This document shows, piece after piece, positions 1 through 48,010 of a DNA stretch of 64,000 bases; position 1 is the first letter of the stretch; every line of letters begins with the position of its first letter. A program made the translations under genes and the position numbers. Where the stretch lies: contig OX597821.1 of the NCBI GenBank assembly GCA_951406725.2, positions 54,250,001 to 54,314,000 of the forward strand. Reading direction: 5' to 3'. Source of the DNA: Octopus vulgaris (Eukaryota). The notes below the pieces were generated by a model. That model worked only from the letters and a program-made list of their open reading frames with translations. It did not search any database and was not told the origin of the DNA.

Positions 1-175
1 TCGATACAGCTTGGCACCAGTGACGTCGCAACTCATTTCTACAGCTGAGTGAACTGGAGCAACGTGAAATAAAGTGCTTTGCTCAAGAACACAACACGCA
101 ACCCGGTCCGGGATTCGAACTCACAACCTCACGATCGTAAGCTCGACGCTCTAACCACTGAGCCATGCGCCTCCA
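1..175 (-). mobile_element. tRNA-derived SINE, 5' part (family C)
   Basis: The minus strand reads GGAGGCGCATGGCTCAGTGGTTAGAGCG...GAGTTCGAATCCCGG, with Pol III A and B boxes, then a body TTCTTGAGCAAAGCACTTTATTTCACGTTGCTCCAG shared with 31725-32015 and 56390-56600. Confidence 0.85.
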
Positions 176-214
176 TAAGTATGTATATATATATATATAT
201 GTATGTATATATCA

Positions 215-605: not shown

Positions 606-653
<48 letters not shown>

Positions 654-662
<9 letters not shown>

Positions 663-779
663 GAAGGAGCTTCTACAGGACTAGAACTGTTTCATTCAAG
701 AGAAATCTTCAGGAAGCTTCCTGAAGATTTCTCTTGAATGAAACAGTTCTAGTCCTGTAGAAGCTCCTTCTATATAATA
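654..779. repeat. perfect 126-bp palindrome with no spacer, axis at 716/717
   Basis: TATTATATAGAAGGAGC...AGGAAG|CTTCCT...GCTCCTTCTATATAATA is self-complementary. It lies between (TA)n tracts at 614-657 and 852-884. Confidence 0.95.
715..765 (+). ncRNA. type I hammerhead ribozyme-like motif (mirror copy on minus strand at 668-718)
   Basis: Stem I AGCTTC/GAAGCT, core CTGAAGA, stem II TTC-TCTT-GAA with a non-canonical U.U closing pair, GAAA, stem III ACAG/CTGT, cleavage triplet GUA at 757-759. Confidence 0.65.
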
Positions 780-848
780 AATTAATTTTACTCTACTATG
801 TATTGAGTACCTTATTTACTGTGGTTAACCCCGAATCAACCCGGGACC

Positions 849-888
<40 letters not shown>

Positions 889-1332
889 GTGACGTATATT
901 TGCCATCTCAATATGGCTACCCCTAAGGGTGGATGCTACTGTAGTTTTTAGCCCCAGGAGGACACACTCCTCCAGCTGGCCATAGACACACTTTCTGTGT
1001 CCTGTCAGTATTTGCAAAGGGAAGTCATCCTTCCCGTCTTCAACTTATGATACACACGGACTCGAGTTTCGAGGTATTGACCTCTCGTCAGCGTGTGACA
1101 ATCATAGTTGTCGGCGAGAATTAGATTTCCTTCACAAATACTTATACTTTTTCCAGCGTCCACTGTCGCTGATATTGAAAAAGTGAAATCAAACGACTTC
1201 CCTTTGCAAATACTGACAGGACACAGAAAGTGTGTCTATGGCCAGCTGGAGGAGTGTGTCCTCCTGGGGCTAAAAACTACAGTAGCATCCACCCTTAGGG
1301 GTAGCCATATTGAGATGGCAAATATACGTCAC
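889..1332. mobile_element. 138-bp inverted repeat with HHR in the spacer (Penelope-like inverted pLTR structure)
   Basis: Arms 889-1026 and 1195-1332 are reverse complements. The 168-bp spacer carries an HHR. The element is flanked by (TA)n on both sides. Confidence 0.85.
1053..1097 (-). ncRNA. type I hammerhead ribozyme, canonical core
   Basis: Minus strand CACACG-CTGACGA-GAGGT-CAAT-ACCTC-GAAAC-TCGA-GTC-CGTGTG: 6-bp stem I, 5-bp stem II, short stem III with palindromic loop, GUC cleavage site. Stem I extends via CAACT(T)ATGAT/ATCATAGTTG. Confidence 0.92.
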
Positions 1333-1754
1333 AATGTGTTACCGCTACTGTATATAACTCACTTTGATATTTATCATTGTTATATATATACACATATATA
1401 TATATGCATATATATATACATACATATACATATTATTCAAATCTTTATACTTCCAACATTATCACACCCCATGAAAGTTATTATAATAATAGTAATAGCA
1501 AATTAACCCCTAGTAACAATTCTAAGAGCTTTATGTATGTAAATACCAATAATACCAGTGATAGCACTAATAACCCAAACTTAGCCAGAAACAATATAGA
1601 TAACATAGCTAATTGTAATGAAGACAATGATGTACTGAGGATTCCCCAGGTATCCCATGTGCAGCCATTAGATGTTAGTTGCACAACATCTAATGGTAGA
1701 ATCTAAGAGAGTAGCAATAATATAAATTTATGTAATTATACAAATGATAATAAC

Positions 1755-1854
1755 TTGAGAAATGATAACATAACACTTAATAATACTTCTAGGAATTTGA
1801 ACAGTACCATGTATGAAGACAGTACAAATATGAATAATAGGAGAAATGGTAATG

Positions 1855-1912
<58 letters not shown>

Positions 1913-2340
1913 TAATAATAATAATAATGATAATAATAATAATAATCGCAGTTGCAATTGTAGGGAAAGATCTCTCTGCCTACTATCAGGTCAATGTTTA
2001 GTAAGAAATATTGTTTATAAATGTGCAATACTGACAGAAAATGATAACTTTGTTTATATAGGGTACTCAGTAGATATGGAAAAAAATGAATTAATCATTT
2101 TTCATCCTTTAGAAATAAGCATAAAGCTCTTTATCTATGAAAATCTGGGAACTTAAAGACAATAATATCGATTTCAGTCTTAAATGGGATTTAGTACATA
2201 GAGCTCAAACATACATAAATAGCTGATATGGATGTTGTATGAAATTCTTAAATATAAAGATAAGAACAACTTGATTAATAATAAATTAGATCTTAGACTG
2301 TCAAGTGTTCGTAATATTAAGCGTGCATTTAAATACGTTA
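1755..2340 (+). pseudogene. Penelope-like GIY-YIG endonuclease remnant preceded by an (AAT)n Asn tract
   Basis: Translation RSCNCRERSLCLLSGQCLVRNIVYKCAIL...VYIGYS (Cys cluster plus the IVY...YIG motif), then frameshifted IDFSLKWDLVHRA and LINNK segments typical of PLE EN C-termini. Confidence 0.8.
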
Positions 2341-2675
2341 GAAGCTAGTAATTATTTAGTATAGTATATACATATTTTATTTTTGCTGACTAAAAAATTT
2401 GTTTTAACTCATTTGATCTATTAACTCTTAGTAATCATAATATATACCTACCCAGTCCCAGTGGTGAATCTATTCTATCACGATTAATATAAATATACTA
2501 TTTTTTCCTAATGAGTCCTTAATTTTCAAATCTCCCTTAATTATAAAATATACCCTCTATGACCTGTTACTATCATACCTCAATCCTTGTTCTTTGGTGC
2601 ATTTTAAATATATTTTCTTAACCTATTTCTAATGATAAATTCAATTCTATTTTATCTCTACTATAACCCGGTATA

Positions 2676-3115
2676 TCATCATCATCATCATTTAGCATCC
2701 GTTTTCCATGCTAGCATGGGTTGGACAGTTCAACTGGGGTCTGTGAAGCCAGAAGGCTGCATCAGGCCCAGTCTGATCTGGCAGTTTTTCTATGGCTGGA
2801 TGCCCTTCCTAACGCCAACCACTCTGCGAGTGTAGTGGGTGCTTTTTACGTGCCAGCCGCACAGGTGCCAGACGGAGCTGGCAAACAGCCACGAACGGAT
2901 GGTGCTTTTACGTGCCACTGGCACGGGGGCCAGGCGAGGCTGGCAATGGCCACGAACGGATGGTGCTTTTTACGTGTCATCAGCATGGAGGCCAGTTGGG
3001 GCAGCGCTGGCAACGGCCACAATTAGATGGTTCGCTTACTTGTCATCGGCACTGGTATCACAGCCGCAATTTCCATTGATGTTGATCAACTTCGATTTTG
3101 GTTCTGCTTTCTAAT
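2676..3115 (-). mobile_element. RTE-type LINE 3' end or RTE-tailed SINE with (ATG)n tail and internal ~62-bp tandem units
   Basis: (CAT)n-TTAGCATCCGTTTTCCATGCTAGCATGGGTTGGAC...CTGGATGCCCTTCCTAA. The same tail is contiguous with RT-coding sequence at 6698-8240. Confidence 0.75.
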
Positions 3116-5011: not shown

Positions 5012-5198
5012 TCATCATCACCATCATCGTTTAACGTCCGTTTTCTATGCTAGCATGGGTTGGACGGTTCGACCAGGATCTGGGAAGCCAGGAGGCTGCA
5101 CCAGGCTCCAGTACGATCTGGCAGTGTTTCTATGGCTGGATGCCCTTCCTAATGCCAACCACTCCGTGAGTGTAGTGGGTGCTTTTTATGTGCCACCG

Positions 5199-5200
<2 letters not shown>
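5012..5200 (-). mobile_element. RTE-type 3' tail repeat
   Basis: Same (CAT)n...CTGGATGCCCTTCCTAATGCCAACCAC motif as 2676-3115. Confidence 0.75.
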
Positions 5201-5238
<38 letters not shown>

Positions 5239-10487: not shown

Positions 10488-10957
10488 GAAATTATAGCCA
10501 ACACTGATTTTACAATGTTTTGTGTCCGAGACGTCTGATATAAACAACAATGAGTTCAAAGATGAAAAGTGGGTAATGGGAATATATGACATATTTCAGG
10601 AGTATTTGCTCCTTCATCAGCACCCATTCAACCCATTAATCATCTGCGAACGTATTGCTTAAATAGACACTAAATTATAGCCACCGCTGATTTTGTTACA
10701 GATCATTAATATTTACATAACAACTTCCAGGACTGGCTTAATATGTAAAATTGGTAAATGCATTAATGTTACACTGCTATATTTACTGTCTATTTAAGCA
10801 ACGAGTTCATGAATGATTAATGGTTGAGCTTGATGAAAAAGAAAAAAGCTCCTGGCATATAGCATATATACCCATTTTTCATCTTTGATCTCATTTTTAT
10901 TTACATCAGGCATCTCAGATATGAAATGTAACAAAATCAGTGCTGGCTACAATTTCC
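10488..10957. mobile_element. diverged inverted repeat carrying an HHR (old PLE-type inverted pLTR)
   Basis: GAAATTATAGCCAACACTGATTTT...AAAGATGAAAAGTGGGTA...TTGCTTAAATAGACA is mirrored by TGTCTATTTAAGCAA...TACCCATTTTTCATCTTT...AAAATCAGTGCTGGCTACAATTTC. Confidence 0.7.
10575..10628 (-). ncRNA. type I hammerhead ribozyme-like motif
   Basis: Minus strand AATGGGTG-CTGATGA-AGGAG-CAAATA-CTCCT-GAAA-TATGTCAT-ATA-TTCCCATT. Core and stem II are intact, stem III is near-palindromic, stem I is imperfect. Confidence 0.7.
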
Positions 10958-26149: not shown

Positions 26150-27270
26150 AGATCAAAGGTTTAAAAGCATATATATATTTACCCCATCCTCTCACAGATC
26201 TAATCAGAATGAAATCAAAGACCGTATTATGGAATTTTTGCAGAAAGTTGCAACTTACAGAAGAACTACTTTACTATAATAATGATGATTCACTTGTTAG
26301 AAACAAAAGCAATTATCTTTCATCTAAAGGTAGGAATAAAATACTTGATGGCTTTTGTGACCACATTCTGAATTTCTTTTGAAATATCTTACACAGACAG
26401 AGAATTAACTCAAAATCTCAGCACTATCGAATGGAAAAACCTAATTGAATTACAAAATGATAAAGAACAGACAATCAAAGAAGCTGATAAAGGAAGTGCT
26501 GTAGTACTGATAAACACAGAAGCCTACGAAAATCTAGAACTACTCATGATAGAAAATAGTGAGAAATCCTTCATCCTTACTTCACCTACATGCAAATTTT
26601 AAATGTAAACCTTGGCTTTTCTATGGTTTACCAAAATCCACAAAAGCCAGATAATTAACGAAGCCTGCAAAAAATTATCAGACATATACATTAATGTCCA
26701 ATCACCAAGAGATTCAAAATTATGACCCATTATAGCTGGCCCATCATGGGAAACTCATTGCTTAAGCAACTTTCTGGATATTGTACTGAAACCCCATTCT
26801 CAAATACTCTTTACACATGAATTAATCAAAAGTAAAAAAAATCAACCAAAATTACTGACAGATGCAAAATTACACCCAATGACAACAGAACCAAGAGTTA
26901 AAAGATGCAGGTGACTTAACTGTGGAATTCAATTTTAAACCAGGTGAAAAATTTGGAATTAGAACTGAGTTCACTTGTGCATCTGAAAACTTAATCTGCA
27001 TCATAACTTGTTCAAGATGTGGTCACAACTATATAGGGTAACTAAAAATGTCTCTCCAATGGAGAACAATACTCTATAGGGAAGAAATCCATTTCTCAAG
27101 ATATAGACAGATACCACTAAGTGAACTCATAGAAAGATGTGCAAGGAATCTCCAACCAAACTTCAAAATTTTCCTTATATACCAATACACTGGAACAACT
27201 ATACAGATATGGTTAAATAAAGAGACTACACTTATAGAAAAATATTAGCTTCACCTTAATATGAACATAT
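26150..27270 (+). pseudogene. internally deleted Penelope-like element (RT N-terminal part plus GIY-YIG)
   Basis: Peptides IKEADKGSAVVL, FYGLPK.HK, PIIAGP and CLSNFLDIVLKP, then directly FTCASENLICIITCSRCGHNYIG and PNFKIFLIYQ. The RT catalytic core is missing. Confidence 0.85.
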
Positions 27271-47213: not shown

Positions 47214-48010
47214 TAGTTTTATTTTTATAGCGTGCTTTCACTTCACTACCGAGCGCAGCTCTGTGTGCCTTGGGTATGTGCTGTGATTTGTTGTGATGCT
47301 CTGATGGTTATTGTATGGAAAGTGTTCTGCGTAGGATGTGTTCAGTGCCTAGTAGTGCAATTTTCTGTATGTTATATGTGTTTGTAAGTCCTGGTGTTTT
47401 TGTTATGTATTTGTCTGAATATTTTTTTATCATGCCTAATGCACCTACTATGATAGGAATTGTTTCTGTTTTCAGATTCCACATTCTAGTTACCTCTATT
47501 TCCAGGTCTTTGTATTTTGAGAGTTTCTCCATTTCTTTTAGAGACACGTTGTCATCAGCCGGTATTGATACATCAATTAGAAAGCATTTTTTTCTTCATG
47601 ATCTCTGACAACTATATCTGGTCTGTTGGCCTTAATTTCTCTATCTGTGTGTATCGGCATATCCCAGAGTATGGTTGCTTTCTCGTTTTCTGTGACCTTT
47701 TCTGGTGTGTGCCTATACCATCTTTTTTCTGTCGTTATTCCATAATGTTGGCATAGCTTCCAATGTATGTAGGTTCCAACTCTGTCATGTCTGTGAATAT
47801 ATTCCTTCTTAGCCAGGACTGGGCAGCTAGAGATAATATGATTTATTGTTTCTTGTCCATCTCCACATATTCTGCAGTTACTTGTAATATTTCTTTTCAT
47901 TACATGTTTTTGGTAATTTCTGGTGGGGAGGCTTTGGTCTTGTGCTGCAATTAAAAATCCCTCTGTTTCTGCTTTGAGTCCTGAGCTTCTCAACCAATAA
48001 GCTTCTCAGC

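What the first reader, a model, noticed from the sequence alone, without database searches (positions are those of the whole stretch)
889..1380. Textbook hammerhead caged between 138-bp identical inverted arms
Seen: an HHR with all catalytic nucleotides (CUGACGA, GAAAC, GUC), perfect stems I and II, a palindromic loop 3 (ACUCGAGU) and an extended bulged stem I. It sits in the loop of a 138-bp inverted repeat with no mismatch noticed. CpG retention and arm identity point to a young insertion. Established: a palindromic short stem III allows PLE, newt and cricket-type HHRs to cleave as dimers. Inference: this is probably the most active ribozyme in the window, cutting minus-strand RNA between 1059 and 1058.
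Basis: partly seen in the sequence, partly recalled or inferred. Interest (0 to 1): 0.7.

Follow-up and report, generated by a model that had tools for sequence, protein, structure and literature searches.

The report
Penelope-pasted hammerhead retrozyme, head-to-head copy
The self-cutting RNA motif is really there, but the mirror arms around it are two back-to-back pieces of one 352-base repeat found hundreds of times in this animal genome, likely pasted in by a Penelope-type retrotransposon enzyme that starts copying at two fixed points, and this lone copy is predicted to cut poorly without a partner.

Summary
The type I hammerhead (1053-1097, minus) and the 138-bp identical arms are real. 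The arms are not a cage. The locus is two 5'-truncated, head-to-head pieces of a 352/353-bp non-coding tandem repeat, a non-LTR retrozyme with 439 exact ribozyme cores in the genome, inserted in (TA)n. In 88 young insertions, 123 of 131 outer ends fall at two fixed sites about 43-46 nt apart. Of 43 head-to-head copies, 38 use one site on each arm and none uses one site twice; among 28 older ones, one does. This is the Penelope-like 'tail' signature. Rare variants are often shared by all units and both arms, pointing to one template. An intact, young (TA)n-targeting Penelope-like element has the same two-end geometry, and one insertion joins its end directly to a retrozyme arm. A natural tandem dimer folds by default into a double hammerhead; the single copy here is predicted to misfold, so 'most active' is unsupported. 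Cleavage, expression and circularity were not shown. The scan noted this pattern before in this genome and another. Verdict: new member of a known kind, with genomic evidence for a mobilisation route the papers read only infer.

The parts
884..1194 (-). Arm A: unit positions q217-352 + q1-175 of the 352-nt retrozyme monomer (q1 = first nt after GUC); outer 3' end at fixed site A
   Evidence: 100% identical to the natural unit of L012
1195..1381 (+). Arm B: unit positions q33-219; outer 3' end at fixed site B
   Evidence: 1 mismatch (1333, CpG>CpA) to the L012 unit
1053..1097 (-). Type I hammerhead: stem I 6 bp, CUGACGA, stem II GAGG/CCUC with loop UCAAUA, GAAA, short stem III, GUC
   Evidence: Rfam RF00163 32.2 bits, E 1.9e-6; descriptor hit
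1041..1110 (-). Extended, bulged stem I around the ribozyme
   Evidence: Fold
1060..1067 (-). Palindrome ACUCGAGU (2-bp stem III + loop); predicted 8-bp duplex between two ribozymes
   Evidence: Dimer MFE and cofold -10.7 kcal/mol
1058..1059 (-). Predicted cleavage site after GUC (C17 = 1059)
   Evidence: Sequence; not tested biochemically
889..1026 (-). Left 138-bp arm of the inverted repeat (part of arm A)
1195..1332 (+). Right 138-bp arm of the inverted repeat (part of arm B)
1338..1381 (+). 44-nt one-sided 'tail' between sites A and B
   Evidence: matches the PLE tail described in PMC8557442 and PMC11167929
1194..1195 (.). Head-to-head (5'-to-5') junction of the two arms, q217 against q33
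852..883 (.). (TA)n target run, left flank
1382..1430 (.). Degenerate (TA)n target run, right flank

Best explanation
The locus is two 5'-truncated, back-to-back pieces of a 352-nt hammerhead tandem repeat (a non-LTR retrozyme) sitting in a TA microsatellite, likely written in one event by a Penelope-like RT-endonuclease that would prime from both cut DNA strands, one at fixed site A and the other at fixed site B about 44 nt further on. Inferred cycle: tandem arrays are transcribed; two neighbouring ribozymes pair through the ACUCGAGU palindrome and cut at both GUC sites, releasing a 352-nt monomer that is probably circularised; the Penelope-like protein nicks (TA)n and copies that one RNA from both nicks, reading through the ribozyme junction, and the two cDNAs are joined 5' to 5'. 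The 138-bp arms are the stretch copied by both primers. This copy holds one ribozyme, cannot release a monomer by itself, and would cut only in trans or weakly. Shown: family, tandem unit, two fixed ends, one of each per inverted copy, TA target, shared variants, one chimera. Inferred: cleavage, circle, identity of the enzyme.
For: 439 exact 33-nt cores in G000, many spaced 352-353 bp apart. Of 88 young insertions (47 BLAST-ranked, 41 picked by core in genome order), 131 outer ends fall as 70 at A (q168-179), 53 at B (q213-221), 8 elsewhere; 116 of 131 run into TA repeats. Head-to-head copies: 38 of 43 A+B, 5 with one odd end, 0 A+A, 0 B+B (L146 and L148 are one duplicated insertion). In the core-picked set, 16 of 16 two-canonical-end copies are A+B, p about 4e-8 if ends were independent. 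Target duplications of about 11-13 bp at three non-TA sites, L035, L068, L175. Rare substitutions covered by two or more segments of one insertion: 20 in all segments, 5 in some, 115 in one; several span both arms, e.g. L069 8/8, L072 6/6, L076 4/4. 5' ends do not pile up at the cut site, 3 of 131, so most templates were joined across it. A young 781-aa RT + GIY-YIG element (11 copies with 762-781 of 781 residues identical) inserts in (TA)n with two ends about 38 nt apart, short + tail in its inverted copies L244, L283/284, L302/303. L067 joins that element's 3' end (94 nt, 99%) head-to-head to a retrozyme arm with no TA spacer. In PMC11167929 a PLE starts reverse transcription at two internal sites that bound the genomic tail.
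Against: No sequence homology between the unit and that element or the other PLE loci screened (only short chance-level hits, apart from separate retrozyme copies lying nearby), and no hammerhead found in it. The chimera is 1 of 137 retrozyme sites examined (88, 49), a search with it as query found no second one among 40 scored candidates, and plain co-insertion into one TA run also occurs (L294, 1 of 30). In the chimera both ends are the short type. Among 28 older head-to-head copies 15 are A+B, 1 is A+A (L214) and 12 have an odd or eroded end. Patchy variants in L069 show some later tandem shuffling. 'Rare' means rare in the 88 sampled, so homogeneous source arrays could explain shared variants without a circle.
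Confidence: 0.85

Rival explanations
1. Same Penelope-type insertion, but the template is an uncut linear multimer from a homogeneous genomic array; the ribozyme and any circle play no part in copying.
For: cDNAs read through the cut site, which an uncut transcript allows. In PMC11167929 unprocessed RNA was the main substrate and ribozyme mutants inserted normally. In 10.64898/2026.07.22.740005 only 1 of 9 tested frog dimers cleaved.
Against: Variants shared by every unit of 5-8-unit arrays and by both arms need one unit to be iterated at some stage. The dimer folds by default into the active double form. At L221/L222 both arms begin exactly at q1 with stuttered copies of the first ~18 nt between them, and L226 begins at q1, a likely trace of a cut RNA end.
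Confidence: 0.35
2. The arms are terminal inverted repeats of a MITE-like element, or a selected cage that holds and regulates the ribozyme.
For: A transcript across the locus would form a 143-bp duplex with the ribozyme in its loop.
Against: The arms are ordinary unit sequence; arm lengths and junctions differ at every locus; 45 of 88 insertions have no inverted arm; the exact window layout was not found elsewhere; the cage does not change the ribozyme's predicted misfolding, 6.8 kcal/mol with or without arms.
Confidence: 0.04
3. The family spreads at the DNA level (satellite-like amplification, fold-back repair) and the inversions arise after insertion.
For: Some patchwork variants within L069 fit local duplication or conversion; 10.64898/2026.07.22.740005 discusses unequal crossover for retrozyme arrays.
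Against: Cannot give two fixed outer ends, one of each per inversion, 5' truncation, TA targeting and target duplications at dispersed sites on many chromosomes.
Confidence: 0.06

Closest known systems
Metazoan non-LTR retrozymes (Cervera and de la Pena 2020, PMC7229834: abstract, passages, sections 14 and 17 read; Li, Clavereau and Pollet 2026, 10.64898/2026.07.22.740005: parts 1-3 of 5 read)
   Same: Non-coding tandem unit of about 350 nt (mussel 350-390, axolotl 331/353), type I hammerhead, GC under 50%, strongly self-paired, short palindromic stem III suited to dimer cleavage, coexists with PLEs.
   Different: In what I read, those papers infer PLE mobilisation from co-occurrence, shared ribozymes and pLTR similarity; they do not describe head-to-head insertions with a one-sided tail ('inverted' occurs 0 times in PMC7229834). 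Here no pLTR homology was found, and expression and circles were not shown.
EN+ Penelope-like element insertions with inverted copy and one-sided tail (Craig 2021, PMC8557442: passages; Frangieh 2024, PMC11167929: parts 1-2 of 4)
   Same: 5' truncation, partial tandems, inverted 5'-truncated copy, tail on one end only, AT-rich or (TA)n targets, two fixed initiation sites downstream of the ribozyme.
   Different: This element encodes no protein; its tail is 43-46 nt against the 30-40 described; its ribozyme is canonical (6-bp stem I, 4-bp stem II), not the minimal PLE type.
Newt, cricket and schistosome-type canonical type I hammerheads, Rfam RF00163 (PMC4209133: passages)
   Same: Conserved core, helix I 6 bp, helix II 4 bp, 1-2-bp helix III with a palindromic loop that impedes monomer cleavage and works as a dimer in tandem repeats.
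   Different: Score 32.2 bits is under the gathering cut-off of 34; the window copy has no tandem partner.

Membership tests
Type I hammerhead ribozyme (RF00163) | Conserved core CUGANGA / GAAA / NUH with three helices, stem I open | tested here: met
Type I hammerhead ribozyme (RF00163) | Rfam gathering score (34 bits) | tested here: not met
   32.2 bits, E 1.9e-6, full-length match
Type I hammerhead ribozyme (RF00163) | Mg2+-dependent self-cleavage at NUH | not testable with these tools
   Only folding and two loci with 5' ends at q1
Non-LTR retrozyme | Type I HHR in short (150-450 bp) tandem repeats, dispersed in many copies | tested here: met
   352/353-bp unit, arrays of up to about 7 units, 439 exact cores
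Non-LTR retrozyme | GC under 50%, highly self-paired monomer | tested here: met
   GC 0.43; z = -6.3 against 60 dinucleotide shuffles
Non-LTR retrozyme | Target duplications longer than 4 bp when present | tested here: met
   About 11-13 bp at L035, L068, L175; not readable in TA runs, including the window
Non-LTR retrozyme | At least two consecutive complete HHR units ('active' in Li 2026) | tested here: not met
   Not met by the window locus (one ribozyme); met by 43 of 87 sampled insertions of the family
Non-LTR retrozyme | Expressed as linear and circular monomeric RNA | tested here: inconclusive
   No holder on record as RNA; contigs of four guessed-RNA runs cover the unit and its head-to-tail joint, which tandem DNA also gives
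Non-LTR retrozyme | No LTR, PBS or PPT | not tested
   No LTR layout seen in the loci; PBS and PPT not searched
Penelope-like element, insertion signature | 5' truncation, inverted copy, one-sided tail, TA-rich target | tested here: met
Penelope-like element, autonomous | RT + GIY-YIG ORF flanked by pLTRs | tested here: not met
   The unit is 352 nt and non-coding; no family copy found as the pLTR of a PLE ORF
Non-autonomous derivative of a local PLE pLTR (Li 2026 model) | Sequence homology to a PLE terminal repeat | tested here: inconclusive
   None in 59 PLE-bearing loci screened (L101-L144, L237-L251), out of thousands of candidates
MITE / TIR DNA transposon | Fixed terminal inverted repeats shared by family copies | tested here: not met
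   Inverted arms vary in length and are absent in 45 of 88 insertions

The most novel reading that the evidence does not exclude
A single ligated 352-nt retrozyme circle is reverse-transcribed in trans by the young 781-aa (TA)n-targeting Penelope-like protein of this genome, which shares no sequence with it; the enzyme primes both target strands on that one RNA at two obligatory, mutually exclusive sites and rolls round the circle, so that arrays and inverted arms record circRNA retrotransposition, and the L067 chimera names the driver.
Probability: 0.4. Interest if true: 0.7.

Novelty: new member of a known kind. Interest (0 to 1): 0.48.

Why it matters
The locus itself is an ordinary, probably dead-end copy. 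The family matters more: animal retrozymes are thought to be moved by Penelope-like elements through circular RNA, but the papers read give this as inference. Here the insertions carry the tail signature that PMC11167929 calls unique to PLEs, a likely single template for both arms, and one chimera with an intact local PLE. That gives a defined RNA, two defined priming sites and a candidate enzyme, so the route can be tested with the in vitro assay already published for an anole PLE.

Tried and rejected
Whole-window Rfam scan listed only microsatellite and hairpin noise. Expression: no RNA holder listed; guessed-RNA contigs cover the unit but cannot show strand, ends or circles. Polymorphism: four runs laid on 884-1380 gave only short family contigs, no listed piece bridging 1194/1195, so nothing can be said about this site in other individuals. 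Classic L1-style twin priming: the window's arm A starts at q217, exactly at site B, but only 2 of 16 core-picked A+B copies have arm A starting at q196-235, so I take it as chance. Excess of 5' ends at the cut site: 18 hits with a non-C before q1 against 4 at control q11, but 15 of the 18 keep all or part of the ribozyme with C17 changed to A or T; only 3 arms at 2 loci start at q1, and a looser pattern added none of 2: not a significant excess. The GIY-YIG remnant at 1944-2159 and its long-ORF relatives showed no pLTR link to the unit. A second chimera was sought and not found. The HHR-like motif at 10620 (minus) got no Rfam hammerhead match. Lunse et al. 2017 (PMC5785218) is not held; only its title was seen in a reference list. 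Searches for a prior description of tail or inversion signatures in retrozymes found none; most subscription papers, Repbase and Dfam were not searchable, and I did not open any supplement (PMC7229834 Fig. S9 and PMC8557442 File S1 may bear on mechanism and on whether these families are catalogued; bioRxiv supplements are closed).

Full report
Observation. The minus strand at 1097-1053 reads as a canonical type I hammerhead with a 6-bp stem I, 4-bp stem II (loop UCAAUA), 2-bp stem III with loop UCGA and the triplet GUC, C17 at 1059. Rfam RF00163 scores it 32.2 bits, E 1.9e-6, below the curated 34. A descriptor of that stringency gave 0 hits in 30 shuffled windows. The arms 889-1026 and 1195-1332 are identical; the inverted match runs 143 bp with one CpG-type mismatch at 888/1333.

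What it is. A search of the own genome (2.8 Gb, 227 contigs) returned 246 matches from 40 scored of 3036 candidates, many at 99-100% identity and 352 bp apart. The exact 33-nt core occurs 439 times, and a related CUGAUGA pattern 338 times in older subfamilies about 75-93% identical to the unit. Taking a natural monomer from L012, cut site to cut site (q1-q352), the window is q217-352 + q1-175 on the minus strand (884-1194) joined 5' to 5' with q33-219 on the plus strand (1195-1381), between TA runs. The 'arms' are simply q33-175 present twice. The unit is non-coding, 43% GC and strongly self-paired (z -6.3): a non-LTR retrozyme as defined in PMC7229834. The host looks like a cephalopod; that is a recalled resemblance and comes from no call of mine.

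Insertion geometry. I mapped 47 sites ranked by BLAST (biased towards the window's layout) and 41 insertions in 40 regions taken in genome order from the core list, C1 to C3:20.1 Mb, skipping 6 sites already held. Of 131 outer 3' ends, 70 lie at site A (mostly q173), 53 at site B (mostly q216 or q219) and 8 elsewhere; 116 run into TA repeats. Of 43 head-to-head copies 38 are A+B, 5 have one odd end, none is A+A or B+B; L146 and L148 are one duplicated insertion. For the 16 independent core-picked copies with two canonical ends, chance pairing gives p about 4e-8. In 49 further, mostly older sites, 28 are head-to-head: 15 A+B, 1 A+A, 0 B+B, 12 with an odd or eroded end. Three non-TA sites show target duplications of about 11-13 bp. 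PMC8557442 describes for PLEs an inverted 5'-truncated copy and a 30-40-bp tail often on one end only; PMC11167929 shows the tail lies between two internal RT start sites and calls it unique to PLEs. The 44-nt stretch 1338-1381 is that tail.

Template. Both arms of an insertion nearly always carry the same subfamily markers (L073 and L164 differ at one marker). Of rare substitutions covered by at least two segments, 20 are in all segments, 5 in some and 115 in one; the 115 are mostly later mutations, the 20 point to one unit iterated through an array and into both arms. 5' ends are spread over the unit, with 3 of 131 at the cut site against about 2 expected, so most templates were continuous across it: a ligated circle or an uncut multimer. 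Sequence alone does not separate these. Two loci begin exactly at q1; at L221/L222 both arms do, with stuttered copies of the first ~18 nt between them, which suggests an RNA that physically began at the cut. This is suggestive only.

Driver. A GIY-YIG search showed many 781-aa open frames. Eleven copies share 762-781 of 781 residues and carry RT and C-terminal GIY-YIG matches; the cysteine motif before the endonuclease suggests the Neptune/Nematis type (PMC8557442), not tested by a tree. Its 3'-end motif occurs 731 times. It inserts in (TA)n with a short end and a tail end about 38 nt apart; of 30 ends, 26 are short, 3 carry the tail and 1 continues into a tandem copy (after moving L303, which a SNP had misfiled, and L284 to the tail class), and its inverted copies pair short with tail. 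L067 (G000:C4 near 141.754 Mb) has this element's end as left arm and a retrozyme as right arm, joined without a TA spacer through a short re-copied PLE piece and a few bases of microhomology. Against over-reading: it is 1 of 137 sites, no second case surfaced, the two RNAs share no sequence homology and I found no hammerhead in that PLE, and other PLE families exist.

Ribozyme activity. In a natural tandem dimer the unconstrained MFE is the double hammerhead, with the 8-bp palindrome duplex as stem III: -152.7 kcal/mol, against -132.9 for two single ribozymes. A single copy prefers a rod pairing GAC with GUC by 6.8 kcal/mol, with or without the arms and in the circle. This fits PMC4209133: short palindromic helix III impedes monomer cleavage and works in tandem, which would also protect a circle. 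The window has one ribozyme, so it cannot release a monomer; 43 of 87 sampled insertions have two or more in tandem. It is the only intact canonical hammerhead found in the window, but that does not make it active. No listed run is on record as RNA.

Novelty. The element is a new member of a known kind. The geometry is known for PLEs. Six paper searches found no description of this footprint in retrozymes; supplements, Repbase and Dfam were not seen. My reading was written down before I consulted the scan's notes; those notes report the same pattern for a 352-nt family in another genome and for several families in this one. They are unchecked and add no support. Interest 0.48.

Noticed in passing
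window 651-851: A second young non-coding family inserted head-to-head in the same TA run: 66-bp perfect palindrome plus a ~70-nt one-sided tail; 100% identical copies elsewhere, many inverting at nearly the same point just before a CUGAAGA...GAAAC motif. Its end also flanks the retrozyme at L003.
   Followed up: partly
window 1707-2330 (+): Decayed PLE fragment: Asn-rich linker, cysteine motif and GIY-YIG start; thousands of related candidates, long frames up to 813 aa, mostly broken.
   Followed up: partly
window 10580-10630 (-): Decayed hammerhead-like motif, CUGAUGA with a 5-bp stem II and loop CAAAUA, stem I rich in G-U; no Rfam match.
   Followed up: partly
L067:1863-2330: Chimeric head-to-head insertion of the young 781-aa PLE's 3' end and a retrozyme arm, both at their short ends.
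   Followed up: partly
L222:1293-1717: Both arms start exactly at the predicted cut site with three stuttered copies of the unit's first ~18 nt between them.
   Followed up: partly
L215-L232: Copies with a changed cleavage triplet show GUA or GUU, never GUG (0 of 18 hits had G), and several older ones have a CCGAUGA core.
   Followed up: no
L237-L247: The young PLE has an upstream coding-like region and a long 3' region with repeated GATTGG and TGACGTC motifs, possibly an internal promoter; no hammerhead found.
   Followed up: no
window 26595-27010: Old fragments (71-81%) related to the young PLE's coding region.
   Followed up: no
window 1-176 and 2675-3060, 5014-5203: Pieces of other abundant interspersed repeats (SINE-like by recall); 2675-2863 recurs at 5014-5203.
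   Followed up: no
window 47577-48005 (+): 142-aa frame resembling the C-terminal zinc-finger/endonuclease part of a non-LTR retrotransposon (resemblance recalled).
   Followed up: no
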